NCBI GenBank assembly: GCA_000004695.1
Contig: CM000151.3
Location: 1,216,001-1,280,000 of the forward strand
Direction: 5' to 3'
Source: Dictyostelium discoideum
Taxonomy: Eukaryota
DNA length: 64,000 nt
In this document: positions 702 through 17,247 of the stretch, piece by piece
Layout: each line of letters starts with the position of its first letter
Position numbering within the stretch: the first letter of the stretch is position 1
The notes under the pieces: generated by a model
The model's input: only the letters and a program-made list of their open reading frames with translations
The model's database searches: none
What the model was told of the DNA's origin: nothing
Position numbers and translations under genes: made by a program

Positions 702-2187
702 TTAAACTGCTTGTTTATTATCAATATTATTACTATTACTACTAGTTGTCGCTTGATAATCATAAATATCATTTGGATGATTTTCTATATTATTATTGTT
801 ATTATTGTTATTATTATTATTATTATCCTTTGGAATTGATGATTGATTATCAATATTATTCATATCATTGTCAGAATTAAAATCATCATCATCAGGATGA
901 TCATCGGTATTCTTTTTAATATTGAAAAGGATACGATGGAAAAGGTATTTCTTATTGATATGGCTACCCAAAACTTGACGAGCATAAACTGCATCTTGAT
1001 GAGCTGGTAATCTTCTGAAAAACATTAACCAGAAACACCAGAGGGCATAAAACATAATTAGAATGGCAATGATAAAGAGTAATGGAGTATTCCAATTTGC
1101 AATTTGTTGAAAAACACCTTGAAAACCCAATAGACCTGTATCTGGTTCAATTCCTTTATGAATATCGGCAACTGCCTTAATCAATACACCACCAAATGCA
1201 CCGAAAAACATTGATCTACCAACGGCACCAATTCTAGCGAAACCCAAAGCACCCCAATATAAATATTTATTCATACGTTCTGTTGAAAGTTCTCTCTTGA
1301 ATTTATCAGGTTTAATAAAGTAAACCAAGTACACTATTGACACCACAAAGAAAGTTACACCCAACACACAAACGATGATTTGTCCGAAAATATACTTGTA
1401 AAGGAAACCCAAGATATGGGATGTGCCACTTACCTCTTTTCTAGTGTGTGCCAATACTCTTGCAGCGTCAACACCCAATACAAAATAAAAACCACTTGAG
1501 AAAACTCTACCAAATCTCTTTAAAATTGCACCTGCACTTTTGTGTCCCAATTGATCAACATCGAATACAATATAAAAAATACCCCAACAACCATAACTCC
1601 ATAAACCGAGTAACAATAAGAATATTATACCACCACTAAACATTTCTTGTAATTCTTCAAATACACCATCTGGACCTGCTACTTTTCTTTCTTTATCAAC
1701 TGCTGCTGCTAATGATAATACACCTAATGAACAATATAAAATTGCTTTTTATAAAATAAAAAAAAAAAATAAAATAAAAAAAAATAAAAAAATAATTAAT
1801 ATTTGGTTTTGTTTTTTTTTTTTCTTTTTCCAAAAAAATATATATAATGTTACTTTTTGAAAGAAAACCAAATCTAGTAATAATTTGAGCTGCTAAATAA
1901 AATCTTTGATTTTGATTGATATCCCATTTATATTTATTTTTATTAAATATAAATTTAAAGTAACCCCATTTACTGGTTTCTTTTAATCTTTTTCTTTCAC
2001 TAAGTTCTTCATACTTTTTATTTAAATCTACATCTGGTTTAATACTTGGTGTTCCATGTTCACCATTCTCTCTATGTGAATCTCTATATTCATAATACTG
2101 TTTTCTATCATAATCCTCTTCAATTGGTGTTATATCGTCCCTATCTATAATTTTATAATTAATAATAATTTTTTTTTTATTATTCAC
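702..2187 (-). CDS. Multi-pass transmembrane protein, 2 exons: join(complement(1854..2187),complement(702..1744)); intron 1745..1853
   Basis: Two minus-strand ORFs in compatible frames. Donor GTAACA after ...RFGFLSK; acceptor AAAAAG before ILYCSLGVL. Both exon edges are phase 1. At least 6 hydrophobic helices, e.g. IIFLLLLGLWSYGCWGIFYIVF, IIVCVLGVTFFVVSIVYLVYFI and LLFIIAILIMFYALWCFWLMFF. Asn/Asp-rich C-terminal tail. Family not recognised. Confidence 0.55.
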
Positions 2188-2305
2188 GTATATATAAAAT
2201 ATAAAAAAAAAAAAAAAAAATTTTTAAAGTGTTAGAGTTTTTTTTTTTTTTTTTTTTACATATAAAATTGTCAAGTCCAAAAGTTATTTTTTTTTTTTTT
2301 TCACC

Positions 2306-2629: not shown

Positions 2630-3488
2630 TTGTATTATTACTATCATCAATAGTATTTGGATTATCCATACTATCTAATGTTGTATTTGTTGTTGAAGTT
2701 GTAGTAGTAGTAGTTGTTGTTGTTGTTGTATTATTACTATCGTTATTGTTGTTTTCGTGAATGTCAAAACTATTAATAATTTTATTTTGTTCGGCCAAAT
2801 TGTTTTTTATTTTATTTTCGTCCAAGGTCAAAGTCGAATTCGGAGCAAGTTCACGTGCTTTTTTTCTTTTTGAGTTTTTTGTGTGGTGGTCTTTTGATGA
2901 TTTTTTTGATTTTTTTTGGATTTTATTTTTGTTTTTATTTTTATTTTCACTTGAAATATTTTCAGTGGTCGAATTGTTTTTATTTTCACCAGTGTTATCA
3001 CTACTACTACTACTACTACTATCACTATTATCACTGTTATCAATATCAATTTCTATGAAATCTTTATTTTTACTGAAGTTATTTAAACTACTACTATTAC
3101 TAAAACTATTATTATTACTATTATTACTGTTATTATTACTATTATTACTGCTACTGCTACTATTGTTGTTGTTGTTGTTGTTTTTGTTATATGAGGATGA
3201 TGTGAGGTGAGGAGTTATTGAGGATAACATATCCCTCATACTTTTTTTACGTAATGAACAATATTCGGTGGAATTCTCTAAATCGTCATGTTCCAAGTTT
3301 GCACCTTCTTTACCAAATTCTATATTTTTTAAGATTGGATCAGGTGATGTCCTAGTTGTAGTTGTTTTTTTAATATCGTTATCATCTTCTTCGTCAACTA
3401 CAATTGCACCATTTTTACTTAAATTTATATTATTATTATTATCATTATTATTATTTATATTATTATCATTTATATTATTATCATTCAT
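2427..3488 (-). CDS. Asn/Ser/Thr-rich low-complexity protein, 353 aa; C-terminal end uncertain
   Basis: ATG-initiated ORF with a non-repetitive N-terminal part (GAIVVDEEDDNDIKKTTTTRTSPDPILKNIEFGKEGANLEHDDLENSTEYCSLRKKSMRDMLSSITPHL). The codon usage is AAT/TCA-rich, typical of Dictyostelium coding poly-N/S. The last ~25 aa are hydrophobic (LLFFYYFFLSL), so they may be read-through or a tail anchor. Confidence 0.4.
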
Positions 3489-3559
3489 TATTTTAATAAA
3501 TTATTATTTTTAAAAATTAAAAACTAAAAATATATTATTATTATTTTTTATTTTTTATT

Positions 3560-3581
3560 ATTTATTATTATTATTATTTTT

Positions 3582-3658
<77 letters not shown>
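3560..3658. repeat. Imperfect (ATT)n microsatellite in intergenic DNA
   Basis: Visible run of ttattattatt... units, with occasional T insertions. Confidence 0.8.
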
Positions 3659-3659
<1 letters not shown>

Positions 3660-4683
3660 ATTTTTTAAAGTTAATTAATTGTATAAATTGTAGTAGTTTA
3701 AATATTTATTGTTACAAAATTATTATTTTTAATTGATATTGATAGTTAAAAAAAATAAATAAATAAATATATAAATTATTATAAAACGGTGAATAAAAAA
3801 AAAAAATAAAAAAAAAAAAAAAATTAATGAATTATTATTTAATGTTAAAAATAGTAATAATAATAATCAACTATTTTATTTTAAATCTTATTTGATTGTA
3901 ATATTATTAATAAATAAATTTTGGAGTGTTTTTATTTTTAATTGTTTGTTTGGTTTGCGTTTGGGTGTTTTTTTTTTTATTTATTTATTTATTTATTTAT
4001 TTTTATTTTATTTTTTTATTTTTTTGATATATAATTATAATTATTGTTATATGAGTGTGTGTCTTTGATGTCAAAATGTATAAGAAAATTAATTTAAAAA
4101 ATAAAAAAGAGTAAAAAAAAATAAAATAAAAAAAATAAAAATAAAATAAAATAATAAAAAATTTAATAAATTAAAATTTTAATATACCCTAGATATTTTC
4201 GTGTAGCATTTAAAAGTGCAATATTCTTTTTTTCAAATTCTTTTTTTTTTTTTTTTCTTTGAGATTACAATGAATTTAAATGTTAATAAGTAAAAAAAAA
4301 AAAAAAAAAAAATAATAAAAATAAAAAAAAAAAAAAAAAAAAAAAATATTATTCATAACAATCTCCTTTTCAGACAAAAATAAAAAAAAAAAAAAAAAAA
4401 AAATAAAAAAAAATAAAAAGAATTTTTAAGGGGGTTTGCGAGAGAAATCGTCATTCTAACATTCAATGCAACCCCTATAAAAAAAAAAAAAAAAAAATTA
4501 AAAAACAGAATTAAAAAAAAAAAATATAAAAATAAAAATAGAATAAAGTTAAAAATACATTAAAAAATTATTTCTAAAATTTTTTTTGTTTATTGTTTTT
4601 TTAATTATTATTATTTTAATTTTTATTATTTTTTATTTTTTATTTTTTTTATTTTTTTTTTATTTTTTTTTTATTTTATTTTT

Positions 4684-5324
4684 TTACATCCAATTATAAG
4701 ATGGAGTTAATGAACCTTCGAATTTAAGAATTGAATTAATGAAAGAATCAGTTTCTTTGGCATAAAGACGATTATCGATATGGATCATATCTTGATCAAT
4801 GTAGAAATCGATATCCAATTGATTATTCCATTTAGTTTCACCTTTACCTAAAACGTTGAATAATTTATGTTTGTAACAAGTGAGTTTAACACGTAAATCC
4901 TCTGGATCGATTTGAAGTAAACCAGCCAACTTTTGAATGGAGATAGTTGAATACAAAGTGATATAACTACGAATGGTTGTCAAGAGGGATTGTTGTTTGA
5001 CCTCCTCTAAAAACAATGATAATTGAAGACGATGTGGATCCAAAGCGGTTACATTGAAACCTGAAATGTATGGTGGTACTGGACCGATACAACGTGGGGC
5101 AGCAAATGTATACAATTCCTCATAAACTGAAAGATCACCCTTTTGTAATCTTAATAATTTATCACCAAATTTCTCTTTCAAATTATTACTAACATTTTCA
5201 TCAATCTTATTTGGATAAAGTGCTTGACAAATTGTTAATAATGCATACATTTTATCTGTTTTTTTCTCATTCTAAATAAAATAAATAAATAAATAATTAA
5301 TTAATATAAAATCTTTTCAATTTG

Positions 5325-5368
<44 letters not shown>

Positions 5369-5983
5369 TATTAATTATAAAAAACAACTTACATGATCAG
5401 ATTGGAAATTTTGAGATTTTGATTTTGAAGCAACAGAAACTAAAATTGTATTTAAAGCTTTAGTGGCTTCATTATATTTTCTTGACATAAGATAGGCGAA
5501 ACCCAAATAGTAGTAAAGGGTGATATGACAAGCGGTGACGTAGGTATACATGGCTTTCTTACCCATATCGATGAGTTCCAATGTTTTCAAGGCCAATGTG
5601 TAATCACCCAATAAACATTGAACACGTACTAAACTGATTACAGAGTAGTAACCCAACATTTTGTAGACTGGATGTGAACAGAAATCTTCAGATGATGATT
5701 CGAATCTATTGGTATTTGCACTGAAAATTTGTGATTTCTTAATGATATAATAAAGATAACGAATAACGTTTGTGGTATCCCAAATCTCTGGATTCTCTGA
5801 TAAAAAGTCAACATCTTGTTTCTTTAACTTAAATTTAGCAAAAGTATGATATTGATAAACGAATTCATCAACAAGATCCCATAACCATGCATTTGGTAAA
5901 TCAATTTCAACATCATTTGGTGAATTTGCACCTAAAAATAAATAAATAAATAAAAAAAAATAAAAAAATAAAAAATTAGTATG

Positions 5984-6028
<45 letters not shown>

Positions 6029-6754
6029 TTTAATTAATAACTTACTTAATAAAGTATGGAAAATTTGATAATAATTTTGCCATGATTCAACACAGGTGTT
6101 TATATTTGGTTGAAAAACTAAAGCATAATAATAACGATAATAGATTTCTTTGTATAATAAAACAAAGAAACGATCGGTGAAGGAGGATTCTTCAAATTTA
6201 TCACCCAAGATTGGAATTAAGTTTTCAATGGTTGGTAATGCGCAATGTGGATAATAGGTTTCACAACTCTTGAAGAAACTATCGTATGAAACTAAAATAT
6301 CTTGATGTGATTGTGATTTAAAGTTATTGTAGAGATTGATGAAATAGTTGATCACTGGTGTGTAAAGAGCTGTTGCTGGTGGTAAAAAGTTGCTTTGGAA
6401 TTGAGCTGATTGGTTTTGTTGAGTTTGTTGTTGATATGCTTGTAATTGTTGAACTTGTTGTTGTGATAAATTAATTGGGAAACTCTCGACATTTGATGGG
6501 GTTTTACCACCACGATGACCACCTTGTTTATTTTGTTGTTGATTGCCACCACCTTGTTGATTACCTTGTTGATTTTGATTACCTTGTTGATTTTGGTGTT
6601 TATTTCTATGTTGTTGTTGTTGTTGTTGTTGGCCACCTTGTTGTTGTTGGTTATTGTTATTTCTATTTTGATAGTTTTTATTATTACCTCCTTTACGATT
6701 ATTATTTTGATTGGTATTGGTATTTGTGGTACCAGCGTTATTTGTTTGACTCAT
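4684..6754 (-). CDS. eif3L: Eukaryotic translation initiation factor 3 subunit L; 3 exons: join(complement(6046..6754),complement(5394..5933),complement(4684..5271))
   Basis: Strong similarity to human EIF3L across all three exons: [10 protein letters not shown] ~ [27 protein letters not shown] ~ [47 protein letters not shown] ~ [43 protein letters not shown] ~ [36 protein letters not shown] ~ [34 protein letters not shown] ~ FYIDKDMIHIAD. Intron donors are GTAAGT at plus 6040-6045 and 5388-5393; acceptors are TTTAG and TTTAG. There is an N/Q-rich N-terminal extension of about 95 aa. Confidence 0.9.
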
Positions 6755-7039
6755 TCTGTACAGAATCTATTTTTTGATTTTATTATAAATATAATAATTT
6801 AGACACACAAATGAATGTTATCTTTTTTTTTTTATAAGTATAAATAAAATAGTCAATCAAATTGAAAAAAAATAAAAATAAAAAAATAAAAAAATTGAAA
6901 AATTGAAAAAAATGAAAAATTTTTTTTTTTTTTTTTTTTCTTTTTTTTCCTAACAAAAAAAAAACGTGCAAGAAGTTCAAAAAAAAAAAAAAAAAAAATG
7001 GAAAATTTAAAAATAATTAAAAAAAAAACCAAATTTGTA

Positions 7040-7070
<31 letters not shown>

Positions 7071-7493
7071 TTATTATTATTATTATTATTAATAATTTAT
7101 TATTTAGTATTTTATTTTGTTTAGAAAAAAAAAATATACAATTATATATTTTTTTCTAACCAAAGTTAAATAATAATAAATTATTAATAAAAAAAATCAA
7201 TTATTTAATATGAAATTTATTAAATAATAAAAATAATAAAAAACCAATTAATTAATTTTTATAAAATTATTATTAAAAAATAAAAAATTATCTGATCAGG
7301 AATTGAAGTTATGATTGGGAACTTAAGTTAGGAAATAAAAAACGTGAAAAAAGCCCCTTTTTTTAATTTTTTTTTTTTTTTTAAAATTTTTTTTTTTTTT
7401 CGAATTTTAATATTTTTTTTTTTTTTTTTTTTTTTTTTTCTCAATTGATTATTTTCATTTATATAATTATTTCATTTTTATATAAATAAAAAA
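6755..7493. promoter_or_regulatory. Shared divergent intergenic/promoter region between eif3L (minus) and eif3A (plus)
   Basis: Two start codons 740 bp apart facing away from each other. The interval is AT-rich with long T/A homopolymers and (ATT)n at 7041-7100. No specific motif identified. Confidence 0.4.
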
Positions 7494-10400
7494 ATGTCAA
7501 CACAACAAGCATTAGCTCAGGCTAATGAACATGCTTTAAGCCAAGCAAATGGTAATGTTATTTAAATAAAATAAAATAAAAAATTATTTATTTATACTAA
7601 TTTTTCTTTTTTTTAAATATATATATATATATAGATTTAATTAAAGTTGGATCAAAATTAAGAGCATTAAGTGTCTTAAGAGATTTATTAAGTGATCGTA
7701 GTCAATGGCATTCAAGTTTAGAACAAATTATGTCATTATACGTTTCATTATGTGCTGAACAATTAGATTATCAATCATTAAGAGATGGTATTCATCATTT
7801 CAAAGTTTCAATCATGTCACAAAAGGAATTCTCAATTGTACCATTAGAAAATATCTTTAAAGAAATCATTACACCAATTGAACAAAAAGTAGACGAATTA
7901 AAAGAGAAAATTGAAAAAGAAAATCAAGAGAATCCATTAGTTGAACAAAATGAAATCTCACTCATTGATCCACAACAAACTCTCTTATTCTCTTATATGA
8001 AATATTTATTTGAAGCTTATAAAGCAATGATTGAAGTACTCACTCGTCAAAATACTAAATTTGAACATACTAAATTTGATCATTCTAAATTTGATTCAAC
8101 TTTACTTGTAAGTATTTTTTTATTTTAAAAATAACAAATATTTATTTATATATTAATTTTTATATTTATTTTTATTTTTTTTAAAAAGAAAATTTCAACT
8201 CAAGCATTAAATTATTGTTCAAAATATCAAAGAAAACCAGATTTTATGGTATTAACAGAATTATTTAGATCAAGTATTGAACAATTATTTAAAGTACCAT
8301 CATTGGATACAGTGAATACTCATATTGAAATTCGTTTCCATCAATTGACCGTTGCAATTTCATTGGGATTATATTTGATTGCTTACAAGTCAATTGAAGA
8401 TATTAATATTATGTTATTCTCATTGTTAGTTAAACCAAAGCCAGTAGTTTTAGCAACATACTATCAAAAGTTGGCTCAAGTCTATTGGATTACCAATGCT
8501 CATTTATTACATGCCTACGCATTATATAAACATTATGTTTACAATAAGAATTATAATATGAATTTCACACAAGCCGATTCTCAATTATACTCTTCAGTAT
8601 TATTGGTTGCTGCATTATCATCACCAATTCAAGAGGTTAATCAAAATCAATCATTATTACAATTTGATTCACAATCACAAAGAGCTATGGGATTGGCATC
8701 ATTGTTGTCACTCCAATCCATTCCAAAACGTGAAACTTTCCTCGTTGACGTTCGTAAGGTTACCAATGAAGTTTATCCAGAGTTGGCCGATCTCGCTTCA
8801 ATCTTTGAGAAGAAAACATCACCATTGATGTTTGCCAAGCTTTTAGAGCCAAAGATTAAATTCATCGAAGGTCACGCACAACTCTCTCAATACTTAAAAC
8901 CATTCCTTCGTGTAGTTTTCACAAAGATCGCTCTTCAAGTTAGCAAAGTCTACGAAGTTATCAAGATTGAAGAATTCATTAAATTGGTACCATTCTATAC
9001 AAAGACTCAAATTGAACTCTACCTTTTGGAATCAATAAAGAGAAAGTTAATCGGTGCTAGAATCGATCATAAGAATGGTGTAATTCGTTTCGGTCACTAC
9101 GACTTTGACTCTGCCAAAATCTCTGATCAATTATCAAACTTGGCCACTGGTGTTGGTAAAGCTTTGAATATGATTGAACCAGAAAAGAAACAACAACAAC
9201 ATGATAAACTCAAGAAAGAGGTCTACGTCAAGATCATCAATTCACTCCAAGATGAACATCGTCGTATTCTCGCTCGTAAGGAAATCATTGAAAAGAAGAA
9301 AATCTACATGGAACAACAAGATCGTATCAAGAAACAAAAAGAACATGAAGAACTTCAAAAGAAAATCCAAGAGAAAGTCGCTCGTGATCAACAACGTCTC
9401 AAAGAGGATATGGAACGTCGTGAAAAAGAACAAGCCGAAGAGGAATCACAACAAAATCAACTCGATCAAACCATCAATGCCATCGATAAAGCCAAGGTTG
9501 AAATGAAAGCCAAGATCGCTAAAATCGCCAAACAATTGTACATTCTCGAACGTGCCTACCGTGAAGAGGAATTACCAGTCGTTGAAAGCCTCCAAAAAAC
9601 TAAAGCCGTCGAAGATAAGCAATACTTTGAATCAACTCAAGCCGAATTCCTTAAACTCCATCGTGAAGTTCATGACCGTAATGTCACCGAAAAAGCTCGT
9701 CTCAACAGAATCGTACCAGAATATCAAAAATTCACTCAAGCCGTCATCGAAGAGAGAAAGAAACAATTACCAGCCCTTCAAAAGGAGCAAGAAAAGAGAT
9801 TCCAAGAGTTCCTCATTCAACAAGAACAAGATGTCCAAGAGAGAAAGGCAAAGAGAGAGAAAGCTCGTATCGCCGCTGCCCAAGAAAAAGCTAGAAAGGA
9901 AGAACAAGAAAGAGAAAGACTCGAACAAGAACATTTGGAACAAGAACGTTTGGAAGAAGAGAGAAAGAATGCTCCATACGTTCCACCATCTTCAAGAAGA
10001 ACTTTCAGAGACGACGATGATGAACGTGAAGAAAGTGGTAGATGGGGTGGTAGACGTGGTGGTGATGATTTCGGTAGATCCAAAGCTGATGAAGGTGATC
10101 GTTGGGGTAGACGTGAAGATGCTCCACCACCAAGACGTGACGAAGGTGGTGATCGTTGGGGTAGACGTGAAGATGCTCCACCACCAAGACGTGATGAAGG
10201 TGGTGACAGATGGGGTAAACGTGAAGATGCTCCACCACCAAGACGTGACGAAGGTGGTTGGGGTAGACGTGATGATGCTCCACCACCAAGACGTGACGAA
10301 GGTGGCGATAGATGGGGTAGACGTGATGATGCTCCACCAAGACGTGATGATGCTCCACCACCAAGACGTGATGATGCTCCACCACCAAGACGTGATGAAG

Positions 10401-10750
10401 GTGGTGATCGTTGGGGTAGACGTGATGATGCTCCACCAAGAAGAGATGGAGGTGGTAGTGGTGGTTTCGGTGGTAGACGTGATGATGCCCCACCAAGACG
10501 TGACGAAGGTGGTGATCGTTGGGGTAGACGTGAAGATGCTCCACCACCAAGACGTGACGAAGGTGGTGATCGTTGGGGTAGACGTGATGATGCTCCACCA
10601 AGAAGAGACGGTGGTGGTGGTAGTGGTTTTGGTAGAAATCAAGGAGCCCAAGGTGATCAAAACGATAGCTGGAGATCCGATAACAAAAAAGAAGAAAACA
10701 AAAAAGATGCTGATGGTTGGCAAACAGTTGGTGCCAAAAAGAGATATTAA
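7494..10750 (+). CDS. eif3A: Eukaryotic translation initiation factor 3 subunit A; 3 exons: join(7494..7551,7635..8107,8189..10750)
   Basis: PCI-domain region matches human EIF3A: LFSLLVKPKPVVLATYYQKLAQVYWITNAHLLHAYALYKHY ~ [55 protein letters not shown] ~ TRVLLATLSIPI; NSLQDEHRRILARKEIIEKKK ~ NSRKEHQRILARRQTIEERKE. It has a long Glu/Arg/Lys coiled-coil and a C-terminal Arg/Asp/Pro repeat region. The C-terminus ...DADGWQTVGAKKRY matches ...DEDGWTTVRR. Donors are GTAATG at 7552 and GTAAGT at 8108; acceptors are ATAG at 7631-34 and AAAAAG at 8183-88. Confidence 0.9.
10080..10615 (+). repeat. Coding tandem repeat, about 10 copies of a 54-bp unit encoding RDDAPPPRRDEGGDRWGR (some 36-bp variants)
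   Basis: Near-identical DNA units gatgctccaccaccaagacgtgacgaaggtggtgatcgttggggtagacgtgaa recur in frame in the eif3A C-terminus. They are analogous to the DDDRGPRRG decapeptide repeats of metazoan eIF3a. Confidence 0.85.
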
Positions 10751-11098
10751 ACTCTTTATTCCACTCTTTTTTTAATCATTGTTTTTTAATTGTATATCAT
10801 TACTTATTATCTACATCTTTTAAAAAAAAAAAATCATTAAAATAAAAAAATAAATAAAAAAAAAAACTTATAAAAAAAAAAAAAATAGAACAAAACAATT
10901 AAAATCATAAAAATAAGTTAATGTTTTATTTGAGATTGTTGAAAGGATCGATTTCCAATCATTTAATAATTAGTCAAATATTTGACTATAGAACTATGAT
11001 TACTAAATAAAAAAGACATTAATTTAATTAATTTAAGCTTTCAAATAATTAATATGAATTTACCATATGGTAAATTTTGTGGGAAAGGTTAATACCAC

Positions 11099-11160
11099 CA
11101 CATGTGGTTATTCTTCATATTTTTTTTTTTTTTTCCAACACATGTGGTTATTCTTCATAT
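11099..11160. repeat. Direct duplication: two copies of CACATGTGGTTATTCTTCATAT 40 bp apart; each copy starts with the perfect palindrome CACATGTG
   Basis: Read at 11099-11120 and 11139-11160, separated by poly-T. This lies 350 bp downstream of the eif3A stop and about 480 bp upstream of the FNIP-repeat gene ORF. Confidence 0.8.
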
Positions 11161-11643
11161 TCTTTTTTTTTTTTTTAAACTTATTCTATTTTTAAACACA
11201 CCTAAATATAATAAAAAAGCTATTTTTTTAAATTATTTTTATTATTATTTTTTTATTATTTTAATTAAATTTTTATTATTATTGTATTATTTATTTTGTA
11301 ATTATTAATATTATTTTTTTTATAATTTTTATTATTATATTATTATTTTTTTATTATTATTACTATTCAAAAAGGAAATATTTGGATAAAAATTATTGAA
11401 AATGGTATTGATTTTTTTTTTTTTTTTAATTTTTGATTTTTTAAATATTCTTTTTCCTTTTTTTTTTTTTTTTTTTTTTTTCATTGTTGTAATTTTTTTT
11501 TTAATTTTAAAAATGTTTTTTATTAACACTGCTATTAATAAATTAAAAAAAAAAAGGAAATTAAAAAAAATAAACAGGAATTATTAACAACTGGTTTAAA
11601 TGAAATTTCAAGGGATTCAGTATATCAACCAATAATAAATATA

Positions 11644-11975
11644 TTGAATAAAATTAGTAGTGATAGGAACAATTATAAATCATTCAAAATAAATTATTCC
11701 AAAGAAATTAGAGAGTTATTAGATATAATTAAACCAGCACAAAAATTAATTACAGAATCAACTCAAGTAAGAATAGATTTTATTCAGACAAAAAAGATTG
11801 ACCATGAAATATTTAAACCAATAATCATTAATATTGAAAGGGTTAATGAAATTAATTCTATTATAAAAGATAATGAAGAAAATGGTAGTGGTAAAAATGA
11901 ACAATTACCAACAACAACAACATCTCTAATGGATTATTCTAAAACAACTAAATCTCAATCATCAACATTATCATC

Positions 11976-12013
<38 letters not shown>

Positions 12014-15000
12014 ATTTAATAGTAGAATTAAAAAAACTATTAATAAAATATTCAGAACTTCATCAGATGTATATTAATCAACTTTTTGAAAAAGCAAACA
12101 AACGTGTAACCATTTTATTTGATGAATGTCCATTATTTATAAATGATAGTTTAATATTTAGAGAAATGGATTCATTAACAATGGTATACGATATTATATC
12201 ATATGATAGTCAAGAACATTGTTTCACAAAGAAATCTGAAAGAGGGACTTGCTCTGGTGTAATAATGAATAATGTATACTTTAAAACTGATAATGGCTGT
12301 GGATTACTTAGACCTGCAAAAGAGAATGCTGTATTTGAATTCTATAAAGATCTTTACCCTGAATCTTCAAAAGGTTCATCATTTGTTTCGCCAACTAGCT
12401 TTATGATTATTACTGAAATTCCAATTTTACCGTCATCTCCAATTGAATGTTCAAAAAGAAAAGAATTGATTGAATTTAAAAGTTTATATAAAACAAATCA
12501 TGCTAGATCAGTATACCTTAGAAATCTTGAGTTTGAACGTGATATTCTAAATTCAAGAGTTAGAACTAATGTATCGACCCAGGCTTCACTTTTAGTAAAG
12601 GGTGAACCACTTGATAAACTAATTGAAAAAAATCGTGATAGAATGGAACGATTTGAAGATTCATTAGATAATGAAAGTTTTGGTGCTCATATTTTATCAA
12701 GTTTATTATTGAATACAACAGATTATAAACCAGATAATATTTTCATTGAAAGTACTACAAATAAAATCATTGGTATTGATAATGATGAATGTATGGAATT
12801 TTATGAAATTCAACAAGGTGCAGATGGAAAACAATATGTCCATTTCAAAAATATATTATTTTTACTTAAGAAAAAAATGTCAACCAAAGTGAACCAAAAA
12901 ATTCGGGAACAATATTTGAAGCATCAACCAAATACTTTTATTTTATCTTGGTTATTAAAAATACTTGAAAAAGATAAGAATTATAAGAATTTAGTTGATT
13001 TAGCTTTTCCTGATGATCAATCACTACGTAATCAAACTAACAGTAGTTTAAAATTACCTTTTACATTTAAAAAAGGTTGGATAAATTCAATGTTATCAAG
13101 ATTTAAATTGATTAAAAGTTTATTAAAAATAAATAATTATAAAAATGGTGGGGAAATTGGTGGTGGCGGCGGTGGTGTTGGTGTTAGTAGTGGTAGTGGA
13201 AGTTTTTATGGAATAGTTAGTTATCAAGATTTATTTAAAGAGGTTTTGCCACTTGCATATATTTACTATCAACGATTGGAATCTGAAAGTATTGGAGACC
13301 CAATTAATCAAATTAAAATAGTATATGAAAGAGAATTTTCATTTGGAGATTTACTTTTTAAACATGATATTGAAGCAGAGCCAAATAAACATAAAACAAT
13401 GAAATTTGTTGAAAGTAAAGAAATATCAATTATTGAAACTATTAAAGAATTAATATTAAATTCAGGAGAAAATGATTTTGAATCACCATCTGATTTTATA
13501 AAATGGTTAGAACAAATTCTTATGTTTAAAAATTCTATTGATATTAGTAGTAGTAGTAGTAGTAGTGGTATTGGTGAAATTAAACTTCATGAATCATTTT
13601 ATAAATCAACAAAATCAATAATTGCAAATCTTTTTAAAGGTGAAGCAGATTTTAAATTAATTAATGATTTTATTAATTTTACAAATTTTAATATTAAAGA
13701 ATTATCAGAACCAACAGTATTTTCATCATCAAAAAATGATGATGGGGCTAATGAAATACAACAACCTTTACTTCATTCAACAATTTATTCAAAAAATTTA
13801 AAATTATTTGATCAAATCAAATTTATTATTAATAATTTAAATGTTAATATTGATTTAGTTAATGAAAAAGGTTTAACAGCATTAGATTTATCAGCAGAAT
13901 TAAATAATTTTAAACTTTTTATTTTATTAATTGAATTGGGTGGTGGTAAAGTTTTCAATTCATCAATTATTAGTAAATTTTATAATTCATTAAAAGCAAA
14001 AGAAAAATTAGAGTTTAAACCATATTTACAAGTTTTATTTCATACCAATCCAAATGCAGCATGGTGTATTTCTTTAAATTGTTTATTACCAGAATATAGC
14101 GGATCACAATTGGCTTTAAATAAACATATCAAAACCATTTCAACCGTTGTAAAAGGTAGAAGAAAAATTTCAGAAGAACATTTTTATTCATTGTTTGATA
14201 GATATGGAGAACCATTAAAAACAAATCAGTATGGTTCTAGTGCTGTACCTTCAATTAAAGATGAATATGGTAATTGTATTTACATTAAATTTAATCCACA
14301 ATTTCCAGGCACAGATATTGCAGTTACAAAATTATCAGAGTATTTATTTGGTCACTGTTCACCATGTTGTGAATTAGGTTCAATAGAAGAACTACCAGTT
14401 TTATTGGTTCAAGAGGTATATGGTGAACCATTAATTAATGTTTTAGAGAAAACACCGGAAATTATAGATAAACTTGATCCATTAAATATTTCAAAACAAT
14501 TAATAATGGGAATTTTAACAAATAATGCAGATGGTAATTTAGGTAATTTTATAATTACTTCAACACCTAAAAAACCAATTTCTAAATCAACAAATAATCT
14601 TGAAGAATCATGTGAAAATAAATTTAAAATTTATTCAATTGATAATGAACAATGTTTTATGCCATCAACTTCAAAACAAACAGAATCAGATACTTCACTT
14701 TTAAATAAATTTAAATTACAAGTAGAGACAGCAATTTTATTATTCAACCAAATGAATGACAATGTTCATCAAGAAGTAATTAAACGTATAAAATCATTAG
14801 ATATTAATGAATTTTGCGAAAAATGGTTACATTTTTTAGAGAAACAAAATTCATTATCATTGGTTCATTTTAAAGAATTGGGACAACAATTAAAAAATCA
14901 AAAGAAAACTATTGTCGGAGTAAATTTTATTAATGAAATGATGAAAACTTTTTATACAAAATTAGCAAGACTTCAACATCATTTAACAATTGCAGAAGAA

Positions 15001-17247
15001 AATATTACTCATTTACAATTATTAGAAAAATTAGAACCAATGATTGCAGAAAGAATTAAACCAATTTTAATTAGCTCAGCCAATGAATCAATTATTAAAA
15101 GATATTGGAAATTAAAAAATGGTTGTACACAAACTATTATTGTTAGAAATTCAAGTTATAATTTAGAACTTACTAGATCAAATAATCCTTCAGCATTTTT
15201 AGCACAACCAATTGATAAACTTAACCCACAAGATATTGAAAATCAACTTTGGGAAGGCCATTATGATCCTGAAAAAGCATTGAGAGAATTTAAAGAAATG
15301 AAAATAGAATTTTCAAAAATTAGTCAAATTTTTAATAATATTAATGATGGTGTCATTGATAGCATTTCTGATTTAGATTTAACAGAATTTTTAAAAAAAA
15401 CAAGTTTTGATAATTTAACAAAAGTCCAAAGTAATAAAATATTTGAAACTTTAAAATCAAGATCAATCAATATCATTCATATTAAGAATTGTGAATATTT
15501 AAAATTAAGAATTTTTAAACATTTTAATTTAGAGAAATTAACAGAAATTGATTTATCTGGTTGCACAAAATTGAAATGTATTAGAAATGGTTTAAATACA
15601 ACTTTAACATTGGCATCTCTAAAAATATTAATAGTTAGAAATTGTATAAAATTAATGGATTTAAAATTAAAAGCAGATAATTTAGAAACTTTAATAGCAT
15701 CAGATTGTTTTAAATTAAAAGAATTTGAAGTTAATTCACCAAATTTAAAAATTTTAAATTTAAATTCATCAATTAATAATCCTTTAATTTTCAATTGTTT
15801 AAACAAATATAAGAAATTAACATTTTTAGATATTTCAAAATCAAAGGGAATACCAGTGATTGAATTTGATTTTCAAGAATTAAAATTTTTAGATGCAAAA
15901 TCAATTGCAGGTTGTAATAAAGTAATTTTAGATTTACCAAAAATTGAATTAATAATTTTTGAAGGTTGTAAAGATTTGAGAGAAATTAAGTCAAAATCAA
16001 ATCATCATTTAACATGGAAGGCTTTAAAATCAAATTCAAATAAATTAATCTTTAATGAAAAACAAATTAATTTAAATTTAATTGGTCCAGATTTAAAAGA
16101 GTTACCAATTGGTTGTGAAAGTGAAATCGAATTAATTGATCCAAATCATTTTCAATTATATTATGGTGATGTTGATGAAATGAAAAATAATCAGGAAAAG
16201 AATTATTATAAAATTAAAAGTTTAGTAATTGGAAATATACCAAAAACTGTCAAATCTTTAATATTGCATGATTCATTTTGTCATTTATTATCACCTGGAA
16301 TAATACCTGATAGTGTAAAAACTTTAAATCTTTATGATATTAAAGCTCCATTAGATGTTGGTTCAATACCATCATCAGTAAAGAGTTTAATATTAAATAA
16401 AGGGTTTGGTCGTATACTAACAGAGGGTATCATACCAAATGGTGTTGAAAATTTAGATATATATGATATTAAACTTCAATTAGAGATTAAATCAATACCG
16501 TCATCAGTAATATCATTAAAATTTCATGATGGGTTTAATCATGATTTAAAACCTGGTATCATTCCAAATGGTGTTAGAAATTTACAAATTCAAAATTTAA
16601 AAAAACCATTGGTTATTGGCTCTATTCCTCAGTCTGTTAATAGGTTAACAATTAATCAATCAATACAATTTAAATTAATACCTGATATTATACCATCAAA
16701 TGTTAACTTTCTTTATTTATATGATGTTAAAGAAGAATTACAAATTGGTTCAATTCCTTCAAATGTAAAATCTTTAGCATTAAATTATAAATTTAATTCC
16801 CCATTATTACCAAAAATAATTCCAGATGGTGTGGAAACCTTAGATCTATATAATGTATTACAACCTTTACAGCGCGGTTCAATACCATCATCAGTTGATA
16901 CATTAACTATTCATGATGGATTCAATCAGATTTTAAGGAGATCAATCATTCCAAATAGCGTTAAAACTCTTCATCTACATGACATAAAACAAAATTTACA
17001 AATTGGTTCAATACCATCTTCAGTAAAAAAATTGATACTTCATGATAAATTCAATCAGAATTTATCTGTTGGTATTATTCCAGAAGGTGTTGAATATTTA
17101 TCTTTACATAATATCATACAAAATTTAGAAATTGGTTCAATACCAAAATCTATGTTACAAATTACATTTGAAAAAAGTTTTGATAAATCAGTACCTCCTT
17201 TTGTAATTCCTAGTGGCACTAAACTTTTATATGCAAATAAAAATTAA
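11644..17247 (+). CDS. FNIP-repeat / LRR protein with two divergent kinase-like modules, 1867-aa ORF; the true 5' end is unresolved (the ORF tool start is TTG, and a micro-exon may lie upstream)
   Basis: The C-terminal third holds at least 17 tandem ~22-aa FNIP repeats (e.g. DGFNHDLKPGIIPNGVRNL, DKFNQNLSVGIIPEGVEYL, YKFNSPLLPKIIPDGVETL). Before them is a Cys-containing LRR-like block (LSGCTKLKCIRNG..., IVRNCIKLMDLKL..., IASDCFKLKEFEV...). One ankyrin-like repeat reads KGLTALDLSAELNNFKLFILLIELGG. Two segments share HxD-K/N..N plus IDN[DE]xC motifs: LLNTTDYKPDNIFIE...IIGIDNDECMEF and ILTNNADGNLGNFII...YSIDNEQCFMP. Stop TAA at 17245-17247. Confidence 0.75.

What the first reader, a model, noticed from the sequence alone, without database searches (positions are those of the whole stretch)
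4684..10750. Two eIF3 subunits (eif3L and eif3A) arranged head to head on a shared 740-bp promoter region
Genes for two subunits of the same translation-initiation complex are divergently transcribed from a common intergenic region (6755-7493). This suggests bidirectional co-regulation. The pairing is not universal in eukaryotes and may be a lineage-specific synteny.
Basis: partly seen in the sequence, partly recalled or inferred. Interest (0 to 1): 0.5.

Follow-up and report, generated by a model that had tools for sequence, protein, structure and literature searches.

The report
Conserved head-to-head eIF3A–eIF3L gene pair
Two subunits of translation factor eIF3 (a and l) sit back to back on a 739-bp spacer in Dictyostelium discoideum, and the same pairing occurs in every social amoeba checked and in two chytrid fungi, so it is old or recurrent, not a local quirk.

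Summary
eif3L (minus strand, 3 exons, 611 aa) and eif3A (plus strand, 3 exons, 1030 aa, identical to D. discoideum AX4 Q86B20) are divergent. Their start codons are separated by 6755-7493 (739 bp, 10.7% GC), and no other gene, tRNA or Rfam RNA lies in between. The spacer has the average size and composition of a D. discoideum intergenic region.

The unusual feature is the pairing. It is kept, in the same orientation and with 299-739-bp spacers, in all seven dictyostelid genomes examined, across all major groups, while the outer neighbours differ. The same head-to-head pair is also found in two chytrid fungi, Cladochytrium replicatum (307 bp) and Chytridium lagenaria (268 bp). In Polychytrium the two genes are still 5 kb apart. 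The pair is absent in Spizellomyces, Coemansia and four metagenomic eukaryote contigs.

The eIF3L phylogeny follows the species tree, so gene transfer does not explain the shared arrangement. "Not universal" is right; "lineage-specific" is not. The pair is either ancestral to Amoebozoa plus fungi or arose twice. Co-regulation from shared promoter elements is plausible but untested. Only weak candidate motifs were found (GAASTTC, AAAAACGTG). I found no earlier description. Interest is moderate.

The parts
4684..6754 (-). eif3L gene (eIF3 subunit L): exons 6754-6046, 5931-5393 and 5271-4684; 611 aa with a ~120-aa Q/N/G-rich N-terminal extension
   Evidence: Splice models. Pfam Paf67 at 2e-136. 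PDB eIF3L at 1.8e-100. Junctions identical to the independent annotation P0001.
7494..10750 (+). eif3A gene (eIF3 subunit A): exons 7494-7551, 7635-8107 and 8189-10750; 1030 aa
   Evidence: Pfam PF22591 plus PCI. PDB eIF3a at 3e-50. Exact match to AX4 XP_645332.1/Q86B20.
6755..7493 (.). Shared 5' intergenic spacer (ATG to ATG, 739 bp, 10.7% GC), the presumed promoter region for both genes
   Evidence: No credible ORF, no tRNA, no Rfam hit. Equivalent spacers are 268-710 bp in the other genomes.
6949..6978 (.). GC-containing island proximal to eif3L. It carries AAAAACGTG (6960-6968) and the palindrome GAAGTTC (6972-6978), flanked by an A20 run (6979-6998) and a T20 run (6920-6939).
   Evidence: 97.7% conserved in the sister-lineage locus L006. 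GAASTTC lies 203-254 nt upstream of the eIF3L ATG in D. discoideum, D. purpureum and P. violaceum, and at 260 nt in Cladochytrium. Its function is inferred, not shown.
7290..7357 (.). GC-containing island proximal to eif3A, carrying the second AAAAACGTG (7338-7346)
   Evidence: 95% conserved in L006, where the flanking AT-rich DNA has indels. It does not fold better than shuffles. This 9-mer occurs only twice in the 64-kb window, and both copies are in the spacer.
7413..7439 (+). T27 run about 55 nt upstream of the eif3A ATG, the likely position of the eif3A core promoter and transcription start
   Evidence: Read from the sequence. The link between oligo-T runs and Dictyostelium start sites is my own knowledge; no start-site data were available.
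10094..10600 (+). 54-bp (18-aa, DRWGRRxDAPPPRRDEGG) tandem repeat, 9.7 copies, encoding the C-terminal tail of eIF3A; this is the GC-rich part of the gene
   Evidence: for the repeat and for 50-55% GC. Protein lengths of 1005-1173 aa among close relatives are consistent with copy-number variation.

Best explanation
The interval 6755-7493 is the common 5' regulatory region of two divergently transcribed housekeeping genes, eif3L and eif3A, and the pair behaves as one evolutionary unit.

Shown: the two genes, their orientation and an empty 739-bp spacer; the same junction kept in every dictyostelid sampled while the outer neighbours change; the same head-to-head junction in two chytrid fungi that lie on either side of the deepest sampled chytrid split; and an eIF3L tree that follows the species tree.

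Inferred: each gene has its own core promoter next to a homopolymer run (about 7413-7439 for eif3A, about 6979-6998 for eif3L). The ~400 bp between them, with two small GC-containing islands, supplies upstream elements that serve both genes. Both mRNAs would then follow the same growth-linked programme. A breakpoint inside the spacer would damage at least one gene of an essential complex, which is why the junction survives rearrangements that remove everything around it.

On origin, the more likely reading is a single ancient origin before Amoebozoa and Opisthokonta split, followed by many losses. The alternative is two independent gains.
For: The spacer is empty.

The pair is conserved head to head in:
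- D. purpureum (710 bp)
- T. lacteum (299 bp)
- P. violaceum (358 bp)
- H. album (384 bp)
- C. fasciculata (436 bp)
- a divergent D. discoideum-complex strain (693 bp)

These come, with the eIF3A identity confirmed by tblastn and the start codons checked.

Outer neighbours are not conserved. None of the D. discoideum flanking ORFs lies next to the pair in four of the five other species. One DUF1206-like gene lies on the eIF3L side in D. discoideum but on the eIF3A side in C. fasciculata, so local rearrangement left the A|L junction intact.

In chytrids, Cladochytrium has a 307-bp spacer and Chytridium lagenaria a 268-bp spacer, both ATG to ATG. In Polychytrium eIF3A lies 5 kb from eIF3L with one gene between them.

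In the eIF3L NJ tree, Fungi have 99%, chytrids 90%, Opisthokonta 97% and Dictyostelia 100% bootstrap support, so there is no sign of transfer.

Candidate shared elements are GAASTTC at a constant 203-260 nt from the eIF3L ATG in four spacers and AAAAACGTG, found twice and only in this spacer in 64 kb.

General precedent: conserved divergent pairs with short spacers are enriched for functionally related genes (PMC2871058).
Against: No expression, transcription-start or chromatin data were available, so co-regulation and element sharing are not shown.

No strongly conserved motif emerges from the six dictyostelid spacers: there are 0 shared 6- or 7-mers at the strict cut-off, and AACTTC in 5 of 6 is only marginal. 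The motifs I cite were chosen after looking at the sequence.

eIF3a and eIF3l are not direct partners. eIF3l enters the complex as a dimer with eIF3k and contacts eIF3e and eIF3c. It is dispensable in Neurospora and in human cells, whereas eIF3a is the essential nucleation core (PMC3826745, PMC5159561). A stoichiometry argument is therefore weaker for a and l than it would be for k and l.

Short spacers alone favour persistence of gene pairs.

No non-dictyostelid amoebozoan, holozoan protist or apusomonad could be sampled, so ancestry cannot be separated from convergence.
Confidence: 0.6

Rival explanations
1. Neutral persistence. The two genes became neighbours by chance and have independent back-to-back promoters with nothing shared. 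The junction survives only because a short spacer between two 5' ends is a small and hazardous target for breakpoints.
For: The spacer is average in length and composition for this genome. No strong conserved motif was found. Short intergenic distance is a general predictor of pair conservation. eIF3a and eIF3l are not direct structural partners.
Against: The outer junctions of the same loci are equally short, for example 170 bp between eIF3A and its neighbour in C. fasciculata and 98-370 bp elsewhere. Yet 0 of 10 are shared with D. discoideum, while the inner junction is kept in 5 of 5 species. The same specific pair in the same orientation recurs in chytrids. For a random neighbour this has a probability of order 5e-5 per genome (my estimate).
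Confidence: 0.25
2. Convergent origin. The head-to-head eIF3A-eIF3L arrangement arose independently in the dictyostelid (or amoebozoan) stem and in the chytrid stem, and was fixed each time because co-regulating the two genes is advantageous. This rivals only the 'single ancient origin' part of the best explanation.
For: The pair is absent from most lineages sampled between the two groups: Spizellomyces, Coemansia, N. crassa and four unidentified eukaryotes. From my own knowledge it is also absent from human, Arabidopsis and C. elegans. In Spizellomyces eIF3L shares a 375-bp divergent spacer with eIF2-beta, another initiation factor. This hints that eIF3L tends to end up paired with translation genes.
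Against: The pair is demonstrably stable for the whole depth of Dictyostelia and across the deepest sampled chytrid split, so very long retention is feasible. Forming the same pair twice by chance is improbable. Polychytrium looks like a decayed version of an older linkage.
Confidence: 0.35
3. The spacer hides a further transcription unit (a small ncRNA, a lncRNA or a micro-ORF gene), so it is not one shared promoter but two promoters separated by a third gene.
For: Two islands of higher GC (6949-6978 and 7290-7357) are conserved in the sister lineage. D. discoideum has 621 annotated intergenic lncRNAs.
Against: There is no tRNA and no Rfam match at E<=1. The 7285-7360 island folds no better than shuffles on either strand, with z of +0.85 and +1.23. 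The only ORFs are low-complexity and 65 aa or shorter. The spacer's GC of 10.7% is below the 17% median of D. discoideum lncRNAs and even below the 13% of silent intergenic DNA. There is no DUSE-like promoter element at the right distance, and none of the Class I RNA features are present (features taken, checked by reading).
Confidence: 0.05

Closest known systems
Evolutionarily conserved divergent gene pairs encoding parts of one machine: histone H2A-H2B, HSPD1-HSPE1 (Hsp60/Hsp10), and the ribosomal protein pair L13/S16 of fungi and alveolates (Davila Lopez et al. 2010, PMC2871058)
   Same: Head-to-head orientation, a spacer well under 1 kb, products that belong to the same complex, and adjacency kept over very long evolutionary distances while the surrounding genes change.
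   Different: The products here are not direct binding partners (eIF3l pairs with eIF3k). One is essential and the other dispensable in the organisms tested. The phyletic pattern is patchy (Dictyostelia plus some chytrids). No co-expression or shared element has been demonstrated. The pair was not found in the text or in the held parts of the supplementary tables of that survey.
Mammalian-type bidirectional promoters (divergent transcription starts less than 1 kb apart)
   Same: The geometry meets the operational definition quoted in PMC2871058: divergent genes with an intergenic region under 1000 bp.
   Different: Mammalian bidirectional promoters are CpG-island based. This spacer is about 11% GC, full of homopolymer runs, and has the average length of any D. 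discoideum intergenic region. So the definition is met trivially by roughly a quarter of all gene junctions in this genome.
eIF3 PCI/MPN octamer subunits a and l as known from human, rabbit and Neurospora eIF3
   Same: Both proteins are clear orthologues with full-length matches to solved chains. eIF3L is 100% identical over its conserved 488 aa between D. discoideum-complex strains.
   Different: Dictyostelid eIF3L carries a Q/N/G-rich N-terminal extension of about 120 aa. Dictyostelid eIF3A has its own 18-aa C-terminal repeat in place of the mammalian 10-aa repeat (the mammalian repeat is my own knowledge).

Membership tests
eIF3 subunit L (Pfam Paf67, PF10255) | Full-length match to the family profile above the curated cut-off | tested here: met
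   455 bits against a cut-off of 27, profile positions 2-397 of 397.
eIF3 subunit L (Pfam Paf67, PF10255) | Sequence homology to eIF3L chains in solved eIF3 structures | tested here: met
   E=1.8e-100 to 5a5t_L, 6yam_t and others over residues 158-601.
eIF3 subunit L (Pfam Paf67, PF10255) | Orthology: the gene tree is congruent with the species tree and the gene is single-copy in the locus set | tested here: met
   NJ bootstrap support: Dictyostelia 100%, Fungi 99%, Opisthokonta 97%.
eIF3 subunit A (PF22591 eIF3a_PCI_TPR-like plus PF01399 PCI) | N-terminal TPR-like/PCI architecture and identity to a curated eIF3a entry | tested here: met
   PF22591 at 186 bits and PCI at 28.5 bits. PDB eIF3a at 3e-50. 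Exact match to UniProt Q86B20.
Bidirectional-promoter gene pair | Divergent orientation with less than 1 kb between the 5' ends | tested here: met
   739 bp ATG to ATG. The transcription starts must lie within that distance unless there is a 5'-UTR intron.
Bidirectional-promoter gene pair | No other transcription unit between the two genes | tested here: met
   No credible ORF, tRNA or Rfam RNA, and no stable fold. An unannotated transcript cannot be excluded without RNA data.
Bidirectional-promoter gene pair | Correlated expression of the two genes | not testable with these tools
   The supplementary tables that could be searched contain no eif3 gene names.
Bidirectional-promoter gene pair | Cis-elements required by both genes | tested here: inconclusive
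   The k-mer screen of six spacers gave nothing at strict cut-offs. AACTTC in 5 of 6 is marginal. GAASTTC is positionally conserved in 3 dictyostelids plus Cladochytrium. AAAAACGTG occurs twice, only here. All motifs were chosen post hoc, and only an experiment can show function.
Deeply conserved microsynteny (conserved divergent gene pair) | Same adjacency and orientation in distantly related genomes | tested here: met
   Seven dictyostelid genomes and two chytrids.
Deeply conserved microsynteny (conserved divergent gene pair) | Conservation is specific to the pair, with the flanks turned over | tested here: met
   The called neighbours differ in every species. tblastn of the D. discoideum flanking ORFs finds only one relocated gene, in C. 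fasciculata.
Deeply conserved microsynteny (conserved divergent gene pair) | Single origin, meaning presence in intermediate and outgroup lineages | tested here: inconclusive
   Absent in Spizellomyces, Coemansia and four metagenomic contigs; loosened in Polychytrium.

The most novel reading that the evidence does not exclude
The eIF3A-eIF3L head-to-head junction is a relic of gene order from the common ancestor of Amoebozoa and Opisthokonta (more than a billion years old). It has been held together by a shared bidirectional promoter and survives today in Dictyostelia and Chytridiomycetes. That would make it one of the very few non-histone gene adjacencies conserved between eukaryotic supergroup-level lineages, and it would point to an unrecognised regulatory or functional link between the essential scaffold eIF3a and the dispensable peripheral subunit eIF3l.
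Probability: 0.4. Interest if true: 0.6.

Novelty: new member of a known kind. Interest (0 to 1): 0.42.

Why it matters
Both genes are annotated and individually ordinary. What could matter is the junction between them.

Adjacencies that survive across all Dictyostelia, where synteny between groups is otherwise almost gone, and that reappear in chytrid fungi are rare. They usually mark genes that must be controlled together.

If the pair is ancestral, it is a useful marker of ancient gene order and a natural experiment on why some lineages could break it. If it arose twice, it is evidence that selection favours joint control of eIF3a and eIF3l specifically. Structural and assembly data do not predict that link, because eIF3l's obligate partner is eIF3k. 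It would suggest that the level of the optional k-l module is tuned relative to the scaffold.

Practically, the 739-bp spacer is a compact candidate for a balanced two-gene expression cassette in Dictyostelium.

Tried and rejected
1. A third protein-database search with the eIF3A PCI region, meant to find other Amoebozoa, returned nothing, not even the protein itself. Together with the caps this prevented sampling of Acanthamoeba, Physarum and similar genomes.
2. The look-up of the AX4 locus by the exact eIF3A protein was 'not on record', so the AX4 annotation of the interval could not be read. My 611-aa eIF3L model is not in the protein collection as an exact string, although its junctions match P0001.
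3. The metagenome scan gave 80 loci, but about 70 are transcript-sized contigs of 1.7-2 kb without flanks. The six long ones were negative for eIF3A.
4. Horizontal transfer of the pair between chytrids and dictyostelids is rejected, because the eIF3L tree follows the species tree.
5. A hidden ncRNA in the spacer is rejected. Class I RNA or DUSE identity for the GC islands is also rejected: there is no 11-nt motif, no CUGU end and no DUSE at about 60 nt (features).
6. Strict motif discovery across six dictyostelid spacers found nothing. MAFFT alignment of the D. discoideum and D. purpureum spacers is not meaningful outside the ends.
7. Co-expression could not be read from published supplementary tables, which hold no gene names. 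One table gave only a DDB0233930 identifier.
8. The literature searches found no earlier description: eIF3a + eIF3l + synteny gave 0 papers, eIF3 + divergently transcribed + gene pair gave 1 irrelevant paper, and the gene-order survey PMC2871058 does not list the pair in its text or in the held parts of its tables.
9. The bacterial-type promoter/terminator scan was not used, because it does not apply to a eukaryote.


Full report
**What is in the sequence.** The region is extremely AT-rich, with GC-richer exons, which is typical of Dictyostelium.

On the minus strand a three-exon gene (6754-6046, 5931-5393, 4684-5271) has canonical GTAAGT donors and AG acceptors and encodes 611 aa. It matches Pfam Paf67/eIF3L over the whole profile (E=2e-136) and solved eIF3L chains at 1.8e-100. 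Both junctions agree with an independently annotated orthologue.

On the plus strand a three-exon gene (7494-7551, 7635-8107, 8189-10750) encodes 1030 aa with the eIF3a TPR-like/PCI architecture. It matches solved eIF3a chains at 3e-50. The product is letter-for-letter D. discoideum AX4 XP_645332.1/Q86B20, on an 8.48-Mb contig, so the window is AX4 chromosomal DNA.

**The interval.** It is 739 bp and 10.7% GC. It contains only low-complexity ORFs of 65 aa or less, no tRNA and no Rfam match even at E<=1.

According to Rosengarten et al. (PMC5295588), D. discoideum intergenic space averages about 700 bp, silent intergenic DNA about 13% GC, and lncRNAs 17% GC. By size and composition the spacer is therefore an entirely ordinary, probably untranscribed, intergenic region. 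About a quarter of gene junctions in such a genome are head to head. The geometry alone is not remarkable. The identity of the two genes is.

**Conservation in social amoebae.** I retrieved the genomic context of the eIF3L orthologue in:
- D. purpureum
- Tieghemostelium lacteum
- Polysphondylium violaceum
- Heterostelium album
- Cavenderia fasciculata
- a divergent strain labelled D. discoideum

In all six, a gene of 1018-1066 aa lies divergently upstream. tblastn with the window's eIF3A, and with eIF3A fragments from other species, shows that it is eIF3A every time.

The ATG-to-ATG spacers are 710, 299, 358, 384, 436 and 693 bp.

The outer neighbours differ from species to species. None of the D. 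discoideum flanking ORFs is found beside the pair in four of the five other species. The single exception is a DUF1206-like gene that lies on the eIF3L side in D. discoideum and on the eIF3A side in C. fasciculata. Local rearrangement has therefore happened around the pair without opening it.

As a rough internal control, the inner junction is kept in 5 of 5 species and the outer junctions in 0 of 10. Several of those outer junctions are just as short.

**Beyond social amoebae.** The same head-to-head pair is present in two chytrid fungi:
- Cladochytrium replicatum: eIF3a of 997 aa with PF22591, 307-bp spacer.
- Chytridium lagenaria: eIF3a of 933 aa, 268-bp spacer.

Start codons were verified, taxonomy, and eIF3A identity.

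In Polychytrium aggregatum, eIF3A lies 5 kb downstream of eIF3L on the same strand, with one unrelated gene between them.

The pair is absent within 10 kb in:
- Spizellomyces, where eIF3L instead shares a 375-bp divergent spacer with eIF2-beta.
- Coemansia.
- Four unidentified eukaryotes represented by long metagenomic contigs.

In Neurospora the two genes have unrelated locus numbers (NCU00040, NCU06279; PMC3826745). From my own knowledge they are on different chromosomes in human (10q26, 22q13), Arabidopsis (At4g11420; At5g25754/7) and C. elegans.

**Transfer, ancestry or convergence.** A bootstrapped NJ tree of 35 eIF3L proteins recovers Fungi (99%), chytrids (90%), Opisthokonta (97%) and Dictyostelia (100%). 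The shared arrangement is therefore not the product of gene transfer.

The two chytrids with the pair fall on opposite sides of the deepest split among the sampled chytrids. The arrangement is therefore most simply ancestral for that class, lost in Spizellomyces and loosened in Polychytrium.

This leaves two readings:
- One origin before Amoebozoa and Opisthokonta diverged, with many later losses.
- Two independent origins, each then frozen.

Demonstrated stability across the full depth of two old clades makes long retention credible. A chance repeat of the same oriented pair is improbable (about 5e-5 per genome for a random neighbour; my estimate). I therefore lean towards common ancestry (about 0.4 absolute probability once other uncertainties are allowed for). 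The decisive taxa, other Amoebozoa, apusomonads and unicellular holozoans, could not be sampled.

**How it probably works.** This part is inference.

Each gene has a homopolymer run near the expected core-promoter position: T27 at 7413-7439, about 55 nt before the eif3A ATG, and A20 at 6979-6998 (T20 on the eif3L strand), about 225 nt before the eif3L ATG.

Between them lie about 400 bp of AT-rich DNA and two short GC-containing islands (6949-6978 and 7290-7357). These islands are 95-98% conserved in the sister lineage L006, whereas the locus as a whole aligns at 92-94% identity with many gaps.

Both islands carry AAAAACGTG. This 9-mer occurs nowhere else in the 64-kb window (0.67 copies expected in the whole window) and is kept in L006.

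The eif3L-proximal island also carries the 7-bp palindrome GAASTTC. This occurs exactly at 224, 254 and 203 nt upstream of the eIF3L ATG in D. discoideum, D. purpureum and P. violaceum, and at 260 nt in Cladochytrium. A one-off variant (GAAGTTT) lies at 246 and 280 nt in T. lacteum and C. fasciculata. The background is about 0.1 per kb.

These are leads chosen after inspection. An unbiased k-mer screen found nothing at strict thresholds and only marginal enrichment of AACTTC. The island at 7285-7360 does not fold, which fits a protein-binding site rather than an RNA.

**Why a and l?** Published assembly work gives no obvious reason. eIF3a with eIF3b is the essential nucleation core. eIF3l enters last, as an obligate dimer with eIF3k, contacts eIF3e and eIF3c, and is dispensable in Neurospora and in human cell lines (PMC3826745, PMC5159561). 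A simple 'equal amounts of two partners' argument is thus weaker than for classic pairs such as H2A-H2B. Tuning the optional k-l module to the scaffold is a possibility, not a finding.

**Comparison with what is known.** The general rule fits this case. Among conserved eukaryotic gene pairs, divergent ones with short spacers are over-represented and tend to be functionally related, for example Hsp60/Hsp10, H2A/H2B and RPL13/RPS16 (Davila Lopez et al. 2010, PMC2871058).

I found no paper that mentions eIF3a, eIF3l and synteny together. The pair is not in the held parts of that survey's tables.

The feature is a new example of a known kind, a conserved divergent pair of same-complex genes. Its interest is moderate and rests on its unexpected depth or recurrence, not on anything unusual in the D. 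discoideum sequence.

Noticed in passing
window 4425-4480 (about 210 bp beyond the eif3L stop codon): An isolated GC-richer island in poly-A/T DNA. Its ends pair (GGGGGTT...AACCCC), and the minus strand folds at -13.8 kcal/mol with z=-2.35. It is 98.5% conserved in L006, above the local average. It has no Rfam match and none of the Class I RNA hallmarks or a DUSE at the right distance. It could be a small RNA, a 3'-end signal or a protein-binding site.
   Followed up: partly
window 4170-4280: A second unique GC-containing island in the eif3L downstream intergenic region, 96.5% conserved over 113 nt in L006. Its function is unknown.
   Followed up: no
window 10094-10600: The eIF3A C-terminus is encoded by a 54-bp tandem repeat (9.7 copies, 50-55% GC) giving DRWGRRxDAPPPRRDEGG units. 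eIF3A lengths of 1005-1173 aa among D. discoideum, D. citrinum and D. dimigraforme entries are consistent with repeat-number variation.
   Followed up: partly
L006 (GCA_054859385.1, labelled D. discoideum) versus window 3000-13000: This 'D. discoideum' assembly is only 92-95% identical to AX4 at the DNA level, with many indels. That is far more divergence than I would expect within one species (my knowledge), so the label may cover a cryptic sister species.
   Followed up: no
L008:8418-11967 (Spizellomyces sp. 'palustris'): Here eIF3L is divergently paired across 375 bp with eIF2-beta, identified by its lysine boxes, its C4 zinc finger and PF01873. After loss of the eIF3A partner, eIF3L is thus again next to a translation initiation factor. 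I did not test whether this is chance.
   Followed up: partly
window 705-2223 (-) and L005:2590-3843: A DUF1206-like membrane-protein gene is the only flanking gene shared between D. discoideum and C. fasciculata, and it lies on opposite sides of the eIF3 pair in the two species.
   Followed up: partly
window 6400-6754 (eif3L exon 1, N-terminal ~120 aa): A Q/N/G-rich low-complexity extension, absent from fungal and animal eIF3L. It has small indels between AX4 and the ACTFIR strain, while the remaining 488 aa are 100% identical. It flooded the first homology search with unrelated candidates.
   Followed up: partly
window 4684-6754: My 611-aa eIF3L model is not present as an exact sequence in the 15-billion-protein collection, although AX4 eIF3A is. 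The deposited AX4 model for eif3L may therefore differ, for example in a splice site or the start codon.
   Followed up: no
window 11644-17247 (+): A single 1867-aa ORF lies immediately downstream of eif3A, with repeated 'GSIPSSVKSL...' units in its C-terminal third. It is conserved in L006 but not next to the pair in other species. It was not characterised.
   Followed up: no
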